Source of the DNA: a virus
Taxonomy: Duplodnaviria; Heunggongvirae; Uroviricota; Caudoviricetes
IMG/VR virus record: IMGVR_UViG_3300013942_000056
Location: 1 to 14,446 of that record
Reading direction: 5' to 3' (one strand)
DNA length: 14,446 nucleotides
Each line of letters starts with the position of its first letter. Within the stretch, counting starts at the first letter, position 1. The notes under the pieces were generated by a model that saw only the letters and a program-made list of their open reading frames with translations, did no database searches and was not told the DNA's origin. The position numbers and the translations under genes were made by a program. Below are positions 864-14,446 of this stretch, in pieces.

Positions 864-1964
864 ATGAGCGAGTCCAAATCGCCGGATGCCCTGAGAGCAA
901 TGGTAGCCGGTACGCTGGCTAATTTTCAGCACCCAACCCTGAAACACAACCTGACTACGCTTAAAGCGTTACACCATGTTGCGTTGATGGATGACACACT
1001 GCATGTCGAACTAATCATGCCTTTCGTGTGGAATAAGCCTTTTGAAGACCTGAAAGAGCAATGTAGTGGTGATCTGCTCCGTATCACTGGAGCAAAGGCT
1101 ATTGACTGGAAGCTGTCGTACAACATTGCCACGCTTAAGCGCGTCAAAAACCAACCAGGCATTAATGGCGTTAAGAACATTATCGCCGTCAGCTCAGGCA
1201 AGGGCGGCGTGGGTAAATCCTCCACGGCGGTAAACCTGGCACTGGCGTTGGCTGCTGAAGGTGCGAAAGTTGGTATTTTGGATGCCGATATCTATGGTCC
1301 ATCAATTCCAAACATGCTGGGCGCGGAAAACCAACGTCCAACCTCACCTGACGGTACTCACATGGCACCTATCATGTCTCATGGCCTGGCAACCAACTCT
1401 ATTGGTTATCTGGTCACCGACGACAATGCAATGGTGTGGCGTGGACCGATGGCCAGCAAGGCGCTGATGCAGATGTTGCAGGAAACTCTATGGCCTGATC
1501 TGGACTATCTCGTTCTCGATATGCCGCCGGGCACTGGTGATATTCAGTTGACGCTGGCGCAGAACATTCCTGTAACTGGTGCGGTTGTGGTAACTACGCC
1601 GCAAGACATCGCGCTGATCGATGCGAAGAAAGGCATTGTGATGTTCGAAAAAGTCGAAGTGCCGGTACTGGGTATCGTCGAAAACATGAGTGTGCATATT
1701 TGCAGTAACTGCGGTCATCACGAGCCAATTTTTGGCACCGGTGGCGCACAGAAACTGGCCGAGAAATACAACACGCAGTTGTTAGGCCAAATGCCACTTC
1801 ATATCTCTCTTCGTGAAGATCTGGATAACGGAACACCAACCGTTATTAGTCGTCCAGATAGCGAATTTACGGCTATTTATCGTGACCTCGCAGATCGCGT
1901 TGCTGCCCAAATGTATTGGCAAGGTGAAGTAATACCTGGCGAAATCGCATTCCGCGCAGTGTGA
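864..1964 (+). CDS. apbC: Iron-sulfur cluster carrier ATPase Mrp/ApbC
   Basis: 366-aa ORF with AGGAG 7 nt upstream of ATG; Walker A GKGGVGKS; Mrp/NBP35-type CxxC (CSNCGHH); near-identity over long stretches to E. coli Mrp as recalled; divergent from metG as in E. coli. Confidence 0.93.
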   Translation: MSESKSPDALRAMVAGTLANFQHPTLKHNLTTLKALHHVALMDDTLHVELIMPFVWNKPFEDLKEQCSGDLLRITGAKAIDWKLSYNIATLKRVKNQPGINGVKNIIAVSSGKGGVGKSSTAVNLALALAAEGAKVGILDADIYGPSIPNMLGAENQRPTSPDGTHMAPIMSHGLATNSIGYLVTDDNAMVWRGPMASKALMQMLQETLWPDLDYLVLDMPPGTGDIQLTLAQNIPVTGAVVVTTPQDIALIDAKKGIVMFEKVEVPVLGIVENMSVHICSNCGHHEPIFGTGGAQKLAEKYNTQLLGQMPLHISLREDLDNGTPTVISRPDSEFTAIYRDLADRVAAQMYWQGEVIPGEIAFRAV

Positions 1965-11627: not shown

Positions 11628-11909
11628 TTATCCCCAGTATGTGTATATGTAAGAACCAAGCCCCGTATATAAATTTGACCAACTAACCGTATTTCCATTA
11701 ATAGTAACTGTTGGAACAGGTAAATTAATGTAGTTGTCGTTGTTAAGAGGCATCAATGACCACACGGCATGTAGCGATTTACCCGGTGGCGGATTGGAGT
11801 ACGTCTTAGAGCCTGATGACGCAGTAAATCGATCAAGAAAAAAAATAGGAGTAAGGAAGCCAGTAACGTTAATTCCTTTATTGTTGTAAATCCCTGTACC
11901 GTATGCCAT
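11628..11909 (-). CDS. Hypothetical Tyr/Asn/Gly-rich protein (93 aa), AT-rich moron; possibly the N-terminal part of a frameshifted gene
   Basis: ATG at 11909 with AAGGA upstream; composition similar to the following ORF, which is in a different frame. Confidence 0.4.
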   Translation of the reverse strand: MAYGTGIYNNKGINVTGFLTPIFFLDRFTASSGSKTYSNPPPGKSLHAVWSLMPLNNDNYINLPVPTVTINGNTVSWSNLYTGLGSYIYTYWG

Positions 11910-11936
11910 TTTTCATCCTTGTTTTTTATCAACACA

Positions 11937-11960
11937 ATATGGCCGATCATGCGGCCATAT
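11937..11960 (-). terminator. Hairpin (8-bp stem) after the 189-aa gene; possible attenuator or operator
   Basis: ATATGGCC (11937-11944), loop GATCATGC, GGCCATAT (11953-11960), 4 nt after the stop codon at 11965-11967; the downstream flank is not T-rich. Confidence 0.35.
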
Positions 11961-11964
11961 CAGA

Positions 11965-12534
11965 TCAATTAGAGCTTTGAAAGGCTTTGTGTGGCTGTGT
12001 TGCGAGGTTATGTCGATGGCTTAACTCACGCATCATGTCTTCAAGCCGACTCTTTGTGTCGTCGAGTTGGTCGGCCATTGCTCCCAAAAGCTGACGAACG
12101 GCCATCGGATCATCGCTGTTTAGTGATGGCATTTTATAACCCGCCTGAGAAGACATAAGATTGAACGCAGACATCAACATCGTTAGAGAGGATTTAAGCC
12201 CAGCAATTTCACGATCTTTGCTGGCAATAATCGCCTCACTCTTGTTAGTGTCATCAGTTCGTTGAGTCTCGCTCACCATATCCAAAGTCGCCTGCAACTT
12301 ATCAGCGCGCTCTTTTTCAGCAAGATAATGAACACCGAAATGATGTGCTAAAGCTACAACCTGAGTTGGCTCTTCAAAGGTGGACTCAAAATTAAGTGCT
12401 GTAACCACTCTCTCAAATATGGAAACGTCTTCTATTCCTCGAAGAATGGCTAACATTTTGACCAGTTCATTAGCATCCATTTCTTCGAATAAGGCGTTTT
12501 GTTCATCAGCTATCGCTTTGCATTTCTTGCACAT
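11965..12534 (-). CDS. Hypothetical protein (189 aa)
   Basis: ATG at 12534 preceded by AGGAAAAACAC and the AGAAAACAACTTGTTT leader motif; no family recognised. Confidence 0.6.
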   Translation of the reverse strand: MCKKCKAIADEQNALFEEMDANELVKMLAILRGIEDVSIFERVVTALNFESTFEEPTQVVALAHHFGVHYLAEKERADKLQATLDMVSETQRTDDTNKSEAIIASKDREIAGLKSSLTMLMSAFNLMSSQAGYKMPSLNSDDPMAVRQLLGAMADQLDDTKSRLEDMMRELSHRHNLATQPHKAFQSSN

Positions 12535-12552
12535 GTGTTTTTCCTAATGCTT

Positions 12553-12568
12553 AAACAAGTTGTTTTCT
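12553..12568 (-). promoter_or_regulatory. Leader motif AGAAAACAACTTGTTT (palindromic core AAACAA-C-TTGTTT), copy 1
   Basis: Lies 18 nt upstream of the ATG at 12534; near-identical copy at 13281-13297 and partial copies at 7967-7976 and 13808-13822. Confidence 0.45.
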
Positions 12569-12649
12569 TATTGGCTTTATTGTGATGTGGCATAAAAGGG
12601 GAGCAAGCTAAACGTAAAGGTGCAAACTCTCTATTTCGGTCAACGAAAC

Positions 12650-12671
12650 ACAAGGGCCATTTGGCCCTTGT
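12650..12671 (-). terminator. Intrinsic terminator after the TerB / small membrane protein pair
   Basis: ACAAGGGCC (12650-12658), loop ATTT, GGCCCTTGT (12663-12671); 2 nt after the stop at 12674-12676; minus-strand downstream flank GTTTCGTTG. Confidence 0.55.
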
Positions 12672-12673
12672 CA

Positions 12674-12832
12674 TTAACACGTTGCTTTACGGACTAGCGG
12701 ATAAGCGAAGTAGATCGCCAGACCAATGAGGACGCCATCAGAAATGACAGACATCATCTTTCCCGTAAAATCCACCAACACCGCCATCACCAGAAGAGCA
12801 ATGACGGTCACAAGCCGGAATCTCTCAAGCAT
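12674..12832 (-). CDS. 52-aa two-helix membrane peptide translationally coupled to the TerB-like gene
   Basis: Minus-strand translation from the ATG at 12832 gives MLERFRLVTVIALLVMAVLVDFTGKMMSVISDGVLIGLAIYFAYPLVRKATC; the ATG overlaps the TerB-like stop (TAATG); two hydrophobic segments; terminator immediately downstream. Absent from the ORF track (below size cutoff). Confidence 0.5.
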   Translation of the reverse strand: MLERFRLVTVIALLVMAVLVDFTGKMMSVISDGVLIGLAIYFAYPLVRKATC

Positions 12833-13257
12833 TAGAGATAAGCATCCAGTGACAACTGAAGCGCCTGTGCGATCTTTTTCAGGGCCAGCTCTTCTTGTTC
12901 GCCAATACCGTCTTGGTCGGCAATATCAAGGCACAGACACAGTACATCTACTGCATCATTAGTCCCGGCCACATCAGCCAGCTCACGTAAAGCCTGGGCA
13001 TTAGCGCGGCGCGGTGAGGCTTCGTATTGAGCACGGATATTGGCGCTCATTTGGGCAATCTCACCAGCAAACGGAGAAAACGCAGGCAGAGCTGCAATTG
13101 TTTTCTCAAGAATGGAAATTTCCTTTGCGTCGCATGTGCCATCGGCATAGGAGATCATGTACGCGCCCCACACGGTGGCTTCAACCGCATCTCGGTTCTC
13201 CATTTTTTTGACCTCGATAACAGCTTTACGAGTTTTCTTTTTGAATAAACCTAACAT
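12832..13257 (-). CDS. TerB-like (tellurite-resistance TerB family) protein (141 aa)
   Basis: Two repeats of the TerB-like pattern: AYMISYADGTCDAKEISILEKTIAAL and LCLCLDIADQDGIGEQEELALKKIAQAL (compare TerB IAVASDGVSSEEK and IAVAKSDGNFDDDEKSAVREIALAL as recalled); AAGGAAAG RBS; leader motif upstream. Confidence 0.6.
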   Translation of the reverse strand: MLGLFKKKTRKAVIEVKKMENRDAVEATVWGAYMISYADGTCDAKEISILEKTIAALPAFSPFAGEIAQMSANIRAQYEASPRRANAQALRELADVAGTNDAVDVLCLCLDIADQDGIGEQEELALKKIAQALQLSLDAYL

Positions 13258-13280
13258 GTGCTTTCCTTTTGTTATTTGTT

Positions 13281-13297
13281 AAAACAAGTTGTTTTCT
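13281..13297 (-). promoter_or_regulatory. Leader motif AGAAAACAACTTGTTTT, copy 2, extended by further AACAA half-sites
   Basis: Minus strand reads CTAGAAAACAACTTGTTTTAACAAATAACAAAAGGAAAGCACATG: a 7-1-7 palindrome AAAACAA-C-TTGTTTT followed by two more AACAA repeats and the RBS. Confidence 0.45.
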
Positions 13298-13350
13298 AGT
13301 TACATGAATTGCTTACGAAAAGACGGTCAATGCATATGCACTAACAACCG

Positions 13351-13548
13351 TCAGAAATAACCAAGTACCGAACCGACTGGAAAAACAAAAATCCCAACAA
13401 CACGAGCCAAGGTCATACCAGCCTGAAACTGGAGATCACCAGAGCAAACGAGTTTTACAATGTTCGATACCCAACCGGCGGCCATGAGAGCTATGAAAGC
13501 CAGAATCGCCAGCCAAGTTTTTCCAAAGTGATTTGAAAACCAGTTCAT
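13351..13548 (-). CDS. Small membrane protein (65 aa, two hydrophobic segments)
   Basis: ATG at 13548 forms an ATGA overlap with the stop of the upstream signal-peptide gene; hydrophobic stretches WLAILAFIALMAAGWV and VVGIFVFPVGSVLGYF. Confidence 0.55.
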   Translation of the reverse strand: MNWFSNHFGKTWLAILAFIALMAAGWVSNIVKLVCSGDLQFQAGMTLARVVGIFVFPVGSVLGYF

Positions 13549-13796
13549 ACAACCGCCTTAGTCACAGCATGATCCTGAGTAACTGGATGAACTTGAGGTA
13601 TCGCATCCACCGTCATCCCATCCAGAGTGACAGGACGCTCTACTGGAGTGGTGGTAATTGTCGTCGACGGAGGTGTGGTGATGGATGAACCCGGCATCAA
13701 AAGGCTCTGGCCGGCTGGAACGGCTACCGTCGCCAGTGAAACTATAATGAGAACGTAGGCCATTGGTTTCAGCCTCTTTCTTTGAAAATTTTCCAT
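13545..13796 (-). CDS. Small Pro/Thr-rich protein with N-terminal signal-peptide-like or membrane-anchor segment (83 aa)
   Basis: MENFQRKRLKP (basic n-region) + MAYVLIIVSLATVAVPAG (hydrophobic core) + Pro/Thr-rich tail; AGGA 8 nt upstream of ATG; lies entirely inside the alternative frame of ORF 13558..14052. Confidence 0.5.
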   Translation of the reverse strand: MENFQRKRLKPMAYVLIIVSLATVAVPAGQSLLMPGSSITTPPSTTITTTPVERPVTLDGMTVDAIPQVHPVTQDHAVTKAVV

Positions 13797-14052
13797 TCGA
13801 ACTGTCCTTGTTGTTTTTCTCCTTCACTAAAGGCCGTGTACTTTTCGCTTCGCGTGAAGAACCAGAGGTAACAATCGCCCCCACGTTCGCAACAACTGAC
13901 GCTTGCTTATCTAAACGTTCATTCAGCAACCGAACGGCAGTCTCTAGTTCATCAAGACGTGACAGAACACGACCGCTAAATAATTCGGCCAAAATTTGAC
14001 GTAGTGAACGAGGACGTTTAGTTGCAGAAGTGAAATAGGTTTGACGTGCCAT
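13558..14052 (-). CDS. Hypothetical basic protein (start MARQTYF); true 3' end uncertain
   Basis: ATG at 14052 (the ORF-track start at 14100 is GTG inside the poly-C/G junction). First ~75 aa look protein-like (RVLSRLDELETAVRLLNERLDKQ); the remainder is Ser-rich low complexity and overlaps gene 13545..13796 in another frame. Confidence 0.35.
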   Translation of the reverse strand: MARQTYFTSATKRPRSLRQILAELFSGRVLSRLDELETAVRLLNERLDKQASVVANVGAIVTSGSSREAKSTRPLVKEKNNKDSSNGKFSKKEAETNGLRSHYSFTGDGSRSSRPEPFDAGFIHHHTSVDDNYHHSSRASCHSGWDDGGCDTSSSSSYSGSCCD

Positions 14053-14099
14053 GTGGACTCCATCCAGTGTCAGAAAGAGTTGCCCCCCGTGGCATTCCA

Positions 14100-14160
14100 C
14101 ACGCCCCCCCGGCCCCCCCCTCCCCGTTGAGGAGGGCCCAGTGGAGGGGAGCCGCCCCCC
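14100..14160. other. Poly-C/G low-complexity junction (probable chimeric assembly or sequencing artifact)
   Basis: CCCCCCC, CCCCCCCC and CCCCCC runs within 60 bp, coinciding with the end of the fmt homology and a clear rise in GC content to the right. Confidence 0.6.
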
Positions 14161-14446
14161 GGTATTTGGGCAGCAGGGACGAATGAACGTTGATGGAGCC
14201 GTAAGGTGGGGTGTTCAGAATGTCCTCCGGCAGGATGCGGCCATAGGCCGCCACCACGATCAGCTCCGGATGCAGCTCCCGCACCAGGGCCAGGGCCGTG
14301 CCGTCCCGCATTTTCGTGGGCTGATACACGGACAGCCCCTGGGCCAGGGCGTATTCCTTCACCGGTGAAAAGGCCAGCTTATGCCCCCGGTTTTTGGGGC
14401 GGTCCGGCTGGGTGAACACGCCGCAGATCTCGTGCCCGTCCTCCAC
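14120..14446 (-). CDS. fmt: Methionyl-tRNA formyltransferase fragment (residues ~25-135 only), GC-rich, non-enterobacterial codon usage
   Basis: Minus-strand translation [24 protein letters not shown] ... VVAAYGRILPEDIL ... INVHSSLLPKYRGAAPLHWALLNGE aligns with the Fmt N-terminal domain (E. coli [45 protein letters not shown]). Homology stops at the poly-G tract; the N-terminus lies beyond the window end. Confidence 0.75.

What the first reader, a model, noticed from the sequence alone, without database searches (positions are those of the whole stretch)
12650..13297. TerB-like protein translationally coupled to a 52-aa membrane peptide as a self-contained two-gene module
The TerB-like gene (12832..13257) ends in TAATG, overlapping the start of an unannotated 52-aa ORF (12674..12832) predicted to form two transmembrane helices, with a terminator hairpin 2 nt after it and a palindromic leader motif in front. 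A TerB-domain protein paired with a tiny membrane protein in a prophage moron position is suggestive of a membrane-targeting stress, exclusion or abortive-infection module; the small ORF falls below standard gene-calling thresholds.
Basis: partly seen in the sequence, partly recalled or inferred. Interest (0 to 1): 0.55.

Follow-up and report, generated by a model that had tools for sequence, protein, structure and literature searches.

The report
Known phage tciA–tciB gene pair
The two overlapping genes are real and strongly conserved, but they are the already named and annotated phage pair tciA–tciB (a TerB-type protein plus a tiny membrane peptide), whose function is still untested.

Summary
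A 141-aa TerB-fold ORF (12832..13257, minus strand) ends in TAATG, which starts a 52-aa hydrophobic ORF (12674..12832). A stable hairpin follows 2 nt later, and a palindromic motif lies upstream.

It is not new or unannotated. The stretch is 100% identical to ~108-kb E. coli phage-plasmids, where RefSeq calls the small ORF "DUF3927 family protein". Phage Cyrano calls the pair "P1 TciA-like/TciB-like". They match Pfam TerB and DUF3927, and PHROGs 632 and 1470.

The coupling is almost universal. 90 of 91 TciA loci, from seven or more phage backbones including virulent ones, carry TciB at −4 to +3 nt. The small ORF is under purifying selection (dN/dS 0.18).

- AlphaFold gives TciB one long helix, so the two-helix hairpin is unconfirmed.
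- The "leader motif" is a genome-wide signal in front of at least 12 genes, mostly early and DNA-metabolism genes.
- There is no match to known defence models.

Most likely this is an early-expressed, membrane-associated TerB/peptide complex. It is dispensable in P1 and its role is unknown.

A side finding: other tciAB lineages carry a conserved, apparently two-state leader RNA that is absent from Rfam.

The parts
12832..13257 (-). tciA: 141-aa TerB-family protein. It has a polybasic N-terminal tail (MLGLFKKKTRK...) and two acidic motifs, YADGTCDAKE and ADQDGIGEQEE.
12674..12832 (-). tciB: 52-aa hydrophobic DUF3927 peptide. Its invariant residues are R6, L14, D21-F22-T23, S28, D32-G33, L35 and P45.
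   Evidence: ORF. Pfam DUF3927 PF13064, 47.4 bits against a cut-off of 25. PHROG 1470 'TciB-like' E 7.8e-21. RefSeq WP_014962273.1. dN/dS 0.18 against 0.7-1.2 in the shifted frames; GRAVY 1.32. Invariant columns. AF2 gives a single helix, residues 2-51.
12830..12834 (-). TAATG stop/start overlap (translational coupling junction)
   Evidence: Read directly from the sequence. Equivalent junctions in 90 of 91 loci: TAATG or TGATG (-1), GTGA or ATGA (-4), or gaps of 0 to +3 nt.
13264..13268 (-). Shine-Dalgarno-like AAGGA, 6 nt upstream of the tciA ATG
   Evidence: Read from the sequence. Conserved in the phage-plasmid relatives.
13282..13295 (-). AAAACAACTTGTTT: a copy of the imperfect palindrome (A/T)AGAAAACAAyTTGTTT that is shared across the genome, 24 nt upstream of the tciA ATG. 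Probably a promoter or operator element.
   Evidence: 2 exact copies in the window, 0.23 expected. Conserved in E. coli and Klebsiella phage-plasmids although the flanks have diverged. 16 gene-strand copies in 100 kb of NZ_CP126951.1 against 0.56 in shuffles; 12 of them lie 12-41 nt before annotated start codons.
13322..13352 (-). Hairpin containing TGCATATGCA, followed by CUUUU. It overlaps the stop codon of the upstream 65-aa ORF and is a terminator-like upstream boundary of the cassette.
   Evidence: terminator-like site 13345..13326. (-14.2 kcal/mol, z -4.23).
12650..12671 (-). GC-rich hairpin 2 nt after the tciB stop, followed by GTTTCGTT. It is a terminator-like downstream boundary.
   Evidence: (-18.3 kcal/mol, z -4.15). 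A GC-rich hairpin of different sequence sits at the same place in other lineages.
12553..12566 (-). Second copy of AAAACAACTTGTTT, 18 nt upstream of the next gene (11965..12534). It shows that the motif is not specific to tciAB.

Best explanation
The locus is the phage cassette tciA-tciB, carried here by an SSU5-like ~108-kb E. coli phage-plasmid.

Shown:
- TciA is a soluble six-helix TerB-fold protein with both acidic 'ADG...E' motifs intact and an invariant polybasic N-terminal tail.
- TciB is a ~50-residue hydrophobic DUF3927 peptide with an invariant polar stripe (D21, K/R25, S28, D32) on one helical face.
- The two genes are joined by an overlapping stop/start in essentially every lineage.
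- Both are under purifying selection.
- The pair travels as a unit, closed by a hairpin, among unrelated temperate and virulent phages.

Inferred:
- The ribosome that finishes tciA re-initiates on tciB, so the two products are made together.
- TciB sits in the inner membrane, and TciA docks there through its basic tail and/or through TciB. This would be a split version of the 'membrane anchor + TerB domain' arrangement seen as TerB with TerC, and as TerB proteins with their own transmembrane helices.
- The pair is transcribed with the early and DNA-metabolism genes of the element, with which it shares the upstream motif. In P1 it lies between the C1-operated ban promoters and ban.
- It acts early in lytic growth to change a membrane-linked property of the host (ion or metal balance, envelope stress signalling, or entry of competing phages or colicins). 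It is an accessory function, not one needed for plaque formation.
For: Identity:
- 100% DNA identity to plasmids where both genes are annotated.
- 'P1 TciA-like/TciB-like' in phage Cyrano.
- Pfam TerB and DUF3927 above their cut-offs; PHROGs 632 and 1470.

Coupling and conservation:
- 90 of 91 TciA loci have TciB at -4 to +3 nt. These include P1, P7, D6, N4-like SP-058 and SP-076, the Erwinia jumbo phage ChrisDB and Pseudomonas Nican01.
- In the reverse direction, 16 of 20 TciB loci have TerB upstream, and the other four hold only truncated or disrupted TciB remnants.
- dN/dS is 0.18 for tciB and 0.045 for tciA.
- The DUF3927 profile finds 856 clusters; the 120 listed are mostly 50-59 aa.

Membrane link:
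- TciB has GRAVY 1.32, with hydrophobic segments at 7-23 and 31-45.
- K8, R10, K11 and K18 of TciA are invariant.
- The one phage that lacks TciB has TerC directly upstream of TerB.
- The literature describes TerB as membrane-associated or amphitropic.

Timing:
- The pair lies in a co-directional early and DNA-metabolism block.
- It shares the upstream motif with the dnaB-like, nrdB and ATPase genes among others.
- P1 tciABC lie between the C1-operated ban promoters and ban on the same strand, and their transcripts are measured 10-20 min into P1vir infection.
- The cassette is present in virulent phages.

Dispensability: P1 CRISPRi scored tciA, tciB and tciC as non-essential (PMC10695390).
Against: - No experiment on TciA or TciB function was found.
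- A physical TciA-TciB interaction is not shown. The tools gave no co-folding.
- The only natural fusion (P0094) is a single contig and probably an indel artefact.
- TciA and TciB types reassort freely. P1 TciA is 83% identical to the window copy but its TciB only 38%; SP-076 and SP-058 share 37% in TciA and 96% in TciB. This argues against a finely co-evolved interface.
- AF2 predicts one 50-residue helix for TciB, not a membrane hairpin, with pTM only 0.48, so the topology is open.
- No sigma-70 promoter was found in the tciA leader, and the role of the shared motif is inferred only.
- The U-tract after the downstream hairpin is weak.
Confidence: 0.6

Rival explanations
1. The pair is a prophage- or plasmid-expressed defence module (superinfection exclusion or abortive infection). 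TerB surveys the membrane, and the small peptide depolarises or blocks it when a second phage injects.
For: - TerB domains occur in validated defence systems: Bunzi, Shango, and Dionysus, where a TerB-like protein is paired with a 4-TM pore-forming protein.
- The cassette is bounded by hairpins and hops between backbones like a moron.
- PHROGs files both families under 'moron, auxiliary metabolic gene and host takeover'.
- The pair is non-essential in P1.
Against: - No PADLOC model matches either protein.
- None of the partner genes of Shango, Bunzi or Dionysus is present.
- The cassette sits in early lytic contexts and in strictly virulent N4-like, jumbo and Nickievirus phages, which have no lysogen to protect.
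- In P1 it lies downstream of the C1-operated ban promoters, which would keep it silent in the lysogen.
- The upstream motif is shared with replication genes.
Confidence: 0.2
2. This is a toxin-regulator pair. TciB would be a small membrane-damaging peptide (like a holin or a type I toxin) and TciA its cytoplasmic inhibitor or timer.
For: - TciB is about 50 aa and very hydrophobic, with charged ends.
- Coupled translation would fix the ratio of the two products.
- In two of the four TciA-less loci (L104, L109) the TciB ORF is truncated rather than intact.
Against: - The invariant polar stripe and P45 suggest a specific binding surface rather than generic membrane damage.
- There is no similarity to any holin or toxin family.
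- The genes can be knocked down singly in P1 without loss of plating.
- Free reassortment of TciA and TciB types is unusual for a toxin and its cognate antidote.
Confidence: 0.1
3. It is a genuine tellurite, metal or colicin resistance determinant, as the historical name 'tci' implies.
For: - TciA is a TerB family member with intact acidic motifs.
- A Vibrio phage links TerB with TerC, a metal-homeostasis membrane protein.
Against: - None of the other ter genes (terZ, A, C, D, E, F) is in the window or in the 100 kb of reference plasmid examined.
- The P1 name was given 'by homology' only.
- The cassette is found in virulent phages, where long-term resistance brings no benefit.
Confidence: 0.07
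4. The 52-aa ORF is a chance ORF that is never translated, and only the TerB gene is real.
For: - It is short.
- No strong Shine-Dalgarno sequence lies directly in front of its ATG.
Against: - It is conserved as an ORF in 90 of 91 loci down to about 30% identity.
- Its dN/dS is 0.18 in frame against 0.7-1.2 out of frame.
- It matches Pfam and PHROG families.
- The profile search finds 856 clusters.
Confidence: 0.02

Closest known systems
Bacteriophage P1 tciA-tciB(-tciC) (also P7 terB/upf69.4, and D6 orf8/orf7)
   Same: - Same two families (PHROGs 632 and 1470), same order, and the same 1-nt stop/start overlap.
- TciA is 83% identical to P1 TciA.
- Function is unknown in both. The genes are non-essential in P1.
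   Different: - There is no tciC. A hairpin follows tciB directly, and the P1 TciC family PHROG 23152 has no counterpart here.
- TciB is only 38% identical to P1 TciB.
- The regulatory context differs: here the AGAAAACAAyTTGTTT motif, in P1 the C1-operated ban promoters with flanking tRNA genes.
- The host element is an SSU5-like siphovirus phage-plasmid, not a P1-like myovirus.
TerB of the terZABCDEF tellurite-resistance operon, with its membrane partner TerC
   Same: - Pfam TerB domain and TerB-like all-helical fold.
- A membrane protein is encoded next to it. A Vibrio phage has TerC-TerB in place of TciA-TciB.
   Different: - No other ter genes are present.
- The partner is a 52-aa peptide unrelated to the multi-pass TerC.
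- The sequence match to the generic TerB model is weak (E 1.2e-6). No solved structure is found by sequence alone.
TerB-containing anti-phage systems: Bunzi (BnzA), Shango (SngA), Dionysus (DinB with the pore-forming DinC)
   Same: A TerB-type domain is combined with membrane-embedded components, and membrane surveillance is the proposed role.
   Different: - No PADLOC model matches.
- The helicase/ATPase partners (Shango) and the pore-forming and MAEBL partners (Dionysus) are absent.
- This pair is encoded by phages, including virulent ones, rather than by host defence islands.
DjlA-type proteins, in which a transmembrane anchor is fused to a TerB-like domain (from my own knowledge of Anantharaman, Iyer and Aravind 2012, not tested here)
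   Same: The logic of tethering a TerB-like domain to the inner membrane.
   Different: Here the anchor and the domain are separate, translationally coupled products, and there is no J-domain.

Membership tests
TerB family (Pfam PF05099) / phage TciA (PHROG 632) | Match to the family profile above the curated cut-off | tested here: met
   PF05099 scores 29.3 bits against a cut-off of 24.4, covering residues 33-136. PHROG 632 E 2.8e-62 over 1-141 of 143.
TerB family (Pfam PF05099) / phage TciA (PHROG 632) | TerB-like all-alpha fold | tested here: met
TerB family (Pfam PF05099) / phage TciA (PHROG 632) | Paired acidic 'A-D-G-x(5)-E'-type motifs. That these are the putative metal site is from my own knowledge. 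| tested here: met
   Y37-A-D39-G40-T-C-D43-A-K-E46 and A113-D114-Q-D116-G117-I-G-E-Q-E122. D39, G40, D43, E46, D114, D116, G117 and E122 are invariant or nearly so in 51 homologues. Metal binding itself was not tested.
TerB family (Pfam PF05099) / phage TciA (PHROG 632) | Confers tellurite, colicin or phage resistance | not testable with these tools
   No experimental data were found for any TciA.
DUF3927 (Pfam PF13064) / phage TciB (PHROG 1470) | Match to the family profile above the curated cut-off | tested here: met
   PF13064 scores 47.4 bits against a cut-off of 25, covering 4-51. PHROG 1470 E 7.8e-21.
DUF3927 (Pfam PF13064) / phage TciB (PHROG 1470) | Encoded immediately downstream of, and overlapping or abutting, a TerB-family gene | tested here: met
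   TAATG overlap in the window. 90 of 91 TciA loci. 16 of 20 TciB-seeded genome loci.
DUF3927 (Pfam PF13064) / phage TciB (PHROG 1470) | Integral membrane protein with two transmembrane helices | tested here: inconclusive
   Kyte-Doolittle maxima at 7-23 (strong) and 31-45 (moderate), with basic residues at both ends. However, AF2 gives a single continuous helix over 2-51. No dedicated topology predictor was available.
P1-type tciABC operon | A third overlapping gene, tciC (35-aa single-TM peptide, PHROG 23152) | tested here: not met
   A hairpin follows tciB by 2 nt. The only ORF at that position (12510..12680) is not hydrophobic and runs through the hairpin. The upstream 65-aa ORF belongs to a different family, PHROG 6006.
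ter operon (terZABCDEF) | Presence of terC, terD, terE and related genes next to terB | tested here: not met
   None is annotated in 100 kb of the identical reference plasmid.
Known TerB-containing defence systems (Shango, Bunzi and other PADLOC-DB v2 models) | Match to the system's protein models, and presence of its partner genes | tested here: not met
   No PADLOC hit for TciA, TciB or the flanking small ORFs. Dionysus (2025) is newer than the library, but its MAEBL and pore-forming partners are not among the neighbouring genes.
Moron (autonomous insert in a phage genome) | Own promoter and terminator, composition different from the neighbours, expression in the lysogen | tested here: inconclusive
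   Hairpins lie on both sides and the cassette occurs in many backbones. Against this, GC is 0.45-0.47, like the flanks. No sigma-70 promoter was found. The upstream motif is shared with at least 12 other genes of the element. Expression state could not be tested.

The most novel reading that the evidence does not exclude
TciA-TciB could be a very widespread, phage-borne, two-component membrane device. One possibility is the phage-side counterpart of host TerB 'membrane surveillance' defences, acting as superinfection exclusion. Another is a decoy against TerB-based immunity. The activity would depend on the invariant D21/K25/S28/D32 stripe of the peptide and on the acidic site of TerB. In the lambdoid-prophage and Erwinia jumbo-phage lineages, the cassette would be switched by a previously undescribed two-state leader RNA that sequesters the ribosome-binding site. 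The trigger of that RNA (a metal ion, temperature or another factor) would name the signal the whole family responds to. The window itself carries only the known protein pair, not this RNA.
Probability: 0.25. Interest if true: 0.65.

Novelty: already known. Interest (0 to 1): 0.22.

Why it matters
As a finding in this window it adds nothing new. Both genes are annotated in identical public records, and the pair has carried a name since the P1 genome was annotated.

It matters only as a reminder that a strikingly conserved cassette has no tested function. The cassette is found in P1-like and SSU5-like phage-plasmids, lambdoid prophages, N4-like podoviruses, jumbo phages and Pseudomonas siphoviruses. 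The DUF3927 profile finds 856 clusters. Meanwhile TerB domains have just emerged as components of anti-phage systems.

The analysis gives experimenters concrete handles:
- the obligate coupling of the two genes;
- free reassortment of TciA and TciB types, which implies that any interaction rests on a few invariant residues;
- the TerC-for-TciB swap in a Vibrio phage;
- in other lineages, a candidate RNA switch that could reveal the inducing signal.

Tried and rejected
1. Co-evolution of the TciA C-terminal tail with TciB, suggested by tblastn stopping at residue 123 in P1. Rejected. The tail LKKIAQALQL..YL is conserved across types, and TciA and TciB types reassort independently.

2. The upstream 65-aa membrane ORF (13351..13548) as a permuted TciC. 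Rejected. It belongs to a different PHROG (6006, against 23152), and the resemblance is only that of short hydrophobic peptides. It is confined to the phage-plasmid lineage.

3. A known RNA family in the tciA leader. None was found in the window or in the structured leaders of other lineages.

4. A diverged copy of that structured leader in the window. The covariance model R1 finds nothing in the window, P1, P7, D6, the N4-like phages, Nican01 or the phage-plasmids. The window leader shows no excess folding (z = 0.12).

5. Sequence search of the PDB with TciA. Only chance-level hits, of EF-hand type. Fold search was needed instead.

6. Natural TerB-DUF3927 fusion as 'Rosetta stone' evidence. 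There is one 196-aa protein (P0094) on one contig, explained by an indel at the 1-nt overlap, so it is not weighed.

7. A sigma-70 promoter in the 93-nt leader. None passes the scan.

8. The search for related loci with the 16-sequence TciB alignment failed because the alignment was too diverse. It was repeated with 7 sequences.

9. The P1 genome paper could not be read.
Full report
**What is there**

On the minus strand, a 141-aa ORF (12832..13257) ends with TAA. The last A of that stop is the first base of the ATG of a 52-aa ORF (12674..12832).

Two nucleotides after the second stop lies the hairpin ACAAGGGCC-AAAT-GGCCCTTGT (12671..12650), followed by GTTTCGTT. It folds at -18.3 kcal/mol, z = -4.15 against dinucleotide shuffles.

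Upstream there are two palindromic features:
- A hairpin at 13352..13322 containing TGCATATGCA. It overlaps the stop codon of the preceding 65-aa ORF and is followed by CUUUU (z = -4.2).
- AAAACAACTTGTTT at 13295..13282, 24 nt before the tciA ATG.

**Where the window comes from**

Bases 11900..14083 are 100% identical to ~108-kb circular plasmids of E. coli. These occur in 220 of 5,426 complete genomes. The same stretch is 96% identical to the phages Cyrano, PhiR41_1 and CMS-2020a.

The reference plasmid NZ_CP126951.1 carries genes for tail, capsid, portal, terminase, ParB and RepB, plus nrdAB, thymidylate synthase, DNA ligase and a DnaB-like helicase. That gene set is an SSU5-like phage-plasmid.

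In that record the small ORF is annotated as WP_014962273.1, 'DUF3927 family protein'. The large one is WP_021533179.1, 'tellurite resistance TerB family protein'. Phage Cyrano annotates them as 'P1 TciB-like' and 'P1 TciA-like'. So the claim that the small ORF is unannotated, or too small for gene callers, is wrong.

**Family assignment**

- TciA matches Pfam TerB above its cut-off (29.3 against 24.4 bits) and PHROG 632 over its full length.
- TciB matches Pfam DUF3927 (47.4 against 25 bits) and PHROG 1470, 'TciB-like'.
- Both acidic motifs (YADGTCDAKE and ADQDGIGEQEE) are invariant or nearly so among 51 homologues. So are the basic residues of the disordered N-terminal tail, K8, R10, K11 and K18.

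In phage P1, tciA, tciB and tciC are annotated with the same 1-nt overlaps. Their functions were assigned 'by homology' only.

**Is the coupling conserved?**

I collected 91 loci with a TciA homologue:
- 80 IMG/VR contigs;
- the window itself, two annotated near-identical copies (the reference plasmid and phage Cyrano), P1 and P7;
- D6, the N4-like Salmonella phages SP-076 and SP-058, the Erwinia jumbo phage ChrisDB, Pseudomonas phage Nican01 and Vibrio phage MS02.

Ninety of these have a TciB-family ORF directly downstream. The junctions are TAATG or TGATG (-1), GTGA or ATGA (-4), or gaps of 0 to +3 nt. In Nican01 the ORF is present but not annotated.

The single exception, the Vibrio phage, has TerC immediately upstream of TerB.

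Searching the other way, from TciB, 16 of 20 genome loci have a TerB-family ORF upstream. The other four have no TerB ORF and carry only truncated or disrupted TciB remnants.

- tciB has dN/dS 0.18 in frame, against 0.7-1.2 in the shifted frames. tciA has 0.045.
- A DUF3927 profile retrieves 856 clusters. The 120 listed are mostly 50-59 aa and come from Enterobacterales and their phages.

The small gene is real and obligately linked to the TerB gene.

**The peptide**

TciB is very hydrophobic (GRAVY 1.32), with maxima at residues 7-23 and 31-45 and basic residues at both ends.

Invariant residues are R6, L14, D21-F22-T23, S28, D32-G33, L35 and P45. D21, K/R25, S28 and D32 fall on one helical face; this is my own reading of the spacing.

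AlphaFold2, with a 57-sequence alignment, predicts a single continuous helix over residues 2-51 (pLDDT 91.6, pTM 0.48). The two-helix hairpin is therefore plausible from hydropathy and charge distribution, but not confirmed.

**Context and regulation**

The pair lies inside a long co-directional block containing nrdAB, thyA, dfrA, exonucleases, a methyltransferase, RNase H and the DUF4942 gene. Its GC content matches its neighbours.

The 'leader motif' is not private to the pair. The core AAACAAyTTGTT, allowing one mismatch, occurs 16 times on the gene strand in 100 kb of the reference plasmid, against 0.56 in shuffles. Twelve copies lie 12-41 nt upstream of annotated start codons. These include a DnaB-like helicase, nrdB, AAA ATPases, a CobT-like gene and the gene next to tciB. 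None lies inside the structural block at 19-45 kb.

The motif is kept in Klebsiella phage-plasmids although the flanking sequence has diverged. I read it as a promoter or operator of the element's early regulon. This is inference.

No sigma-70 promoter was found in the leader.

In P1, the C1-operated ban promoters lie upstream of tciABC and ban on the same strand. tciA, tciB and tciC transcripts are measured 10-20 min after P1vir infection.

The cassette also occurs in strictly virulent phages. Together these points favour early lytic expression over a lysogen-expressed moron.

**Function**

Nothing has been tested beyond non-essentiality of tciA, tciB and tciC for P1 plaque formation by CRISPRi (PMC10695390).

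No PADLOC defence model matches. TerB domains do occur in the defence systems Bunzi, Shango and Dionysus. In Dionysus a TerB-like protein is paired with a 4-TM pore-forming protein. TerB is described as membrane-associated or amphitropic.

My preferred model has three parts:
- the two products are made together by coupled translation;
- TciB sits in the inner membrane, and TciA docks there through its basic tail and/or TciB;
- the pair has an accessory effect on a membrane-linked host property early in infection.

The identity part of this is near certain. The mechanistic part is perhaps 40% likely.

The rivals are a lysogen-expressed exclusion or abortive-infection module (0.2), a membrane toxin with its regulator (0.1), true tellurite or metal resistance (0.07), and a non-translated ORF (0.02).

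**Modularity**

TciA and TciB types reassort:

| Comparison | TciA identity | TciB identity |
|---|---|---|
| P1 vs window | 83% | 38% |
| P1 vs P7 | 31% | 83% |
| P7 vs D6 | 99% | 67% |
| SP-076 vs SP-058 | 37% | 96% |

 Recombination between the two genes is therefore frequent. Any interaction must rely on the few invariant residues.

The window has no tciC.

**Side finding, outside the window**

In lambdoid-type prophage loci, and in Erwinia jumbo phages, tciA is preceded by a conserved ~110-nt leader.

A 17-mer from it found 120 IMG/VR loci:
- 106 are followed by TciA;
- 5 are cut off by a contig end;
- 6 are chance matches;
- 3 are genuine leaders no longer followed by tciA. One is a clean tciAB deletion (L184), one is degraded (L194), and one has a different ORF after the ATG (L226).

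Sixty-three distinct leaders were aligned (A5). They support helices P0, P1, P2 and P4 at 97.9% pairing, against about 40% when the partners are slid. Compensatory changes are present: U-A to C-G in P0, and A-U to G-C and C-G to U-A in P1.

An alternative nested fold (P3 plus P4) pairs at 91%. In the Erwinia copy, the minimum-free-energy structure extends this fold by pairing the invariant CCUUU with the Shine-Dalgarno AAAGG. This looks like a two-state translational switch.

No Rfam family matches it. It is absent from the window and from the P1, P7, D6, N4-like and phage-plasmid loci.

The lineage diversity is limited, so the covariation evidence is suggestive rather than conclusive.

**Verdict**

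The feature is an already known and annotated gene pair of unknown function.

Noticed in passing
Related loci, not the window: e.g. L053 2376-2503, L088 (Erwinia phage ChrisDB) 1081-1203; alignment A5: A conserved ~110-nt structured leader lies directly upstream of tciA in lambdoid-type prophages and Erwinia jumbo phages. Two mutually exclusive helix sets both show compensatory changes: P0/P1/P2, and P3/P4 with an anti-SD CCUUU pairing to AAAGG. It is linked to tciA in 106 of 109 genuine, uncut instances. It is not in Rfam and is absent from the window. It is a candidate new cis-regulatory RNA switch.
   Followed up: partly
window 13282-13295 and 12553-12566 (minus strand); reference plasmid loci L232 and L091: The imperfect palindrome (A/T)AGAAAACAAyTTGTTT recurs 16 times on the gene strand in 100 kb of the phage-plasmid (0.56 expected). 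Twelve copies lie 12-41 nt before start codons, mostly of early, replication and nucleotide-metabolism genes, and none inside the structural block. It is probably a promoter or operator of the element's early regulon.
   Followed up: partly
window 14084-14446: The last 363 bases do not belong to the phage-plasmid. The match to about 200 near-identical plasmids stops at 14083. GC jumps from 0.47 to 0.675, and the stretch encodes a fragment of a formyl transferase (Pfam Formyl_trans_N, E 1e-26). The window end looks chimeric or joined to foreign DNA.
   Followed up: partly
L003 (P1), L004 (P7), L085 (D6), L086/L087 (SP-076/SP-058), compared with window 12674-13257: TciA and TciB sequence types reassort independently between phages (for example P1 TciA is 83% identical to the window copy but its TciB only 38%; SP-076 and SP-058 share 37% and 96%). 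This implies frequent recombination at or near the gene junction.
   Followed up: yes
L090 (Vibrio phage vB_VpaP-MS02) 78-1626: This is the only TciA-homologue locus without TciB. It has a TerC/Alx-family membrane protein gene directly upstream of TerB, as if TerC replaces TciB as the membrane partner.
   Followed up: no
protein P0094 (196 aa, single Logan contig): A TerB + DUF3927 fusion protein of the P1 type (…LPLEQLYLMVIKARL…). It is most simply explained by an indel at the 1-nt overlap. Whether it is a real fusion or a sequencing artefact is unknown.
   Followed up: partly
window 13351-13548 (minus strand): A 65-aa ORF with two hydrophobic segments lies directly upstream of tciA. It matches PHROG 6006 and gives a sub-threshold holin-like Pfam hit (E 0.036). 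It is conserved in Klebsiella phage-plasmids and ends in a terminator-like hairpin. It is not related to P1 TciC.
   Followed up: partly
L003, L004, L085, L088; L053 2006-2078 and 3133-3325: tciAB often sits beside tRNA genes (P1, P7, D6, ChrisDB, lambdoid prophages). In lambdoid loci the Rfam sRNA STnc100 lies just downstream. A box like the STnc100 3' part (CACCGGGAGGCACCCGGCACC) lies just upstream of tciA in P1, P7 and D6.
   Followed up: no
L184 3008-3145: In this prophage the tciA leader is joined directly to the post-tciB hairpin region. This is a clean deletion of tciAB, which suggests the cassette can be lost as a unit.
   Followed up: no
window 864-1964 and the left end; reference plasmid 61084-64802: The phage-plasmid carries host-like metG (methionine-tRNA ligase), apbC (Fe-S cluster carrier) and a HumD-family translesion polymerase gene next to the early block.
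   Followed up: no
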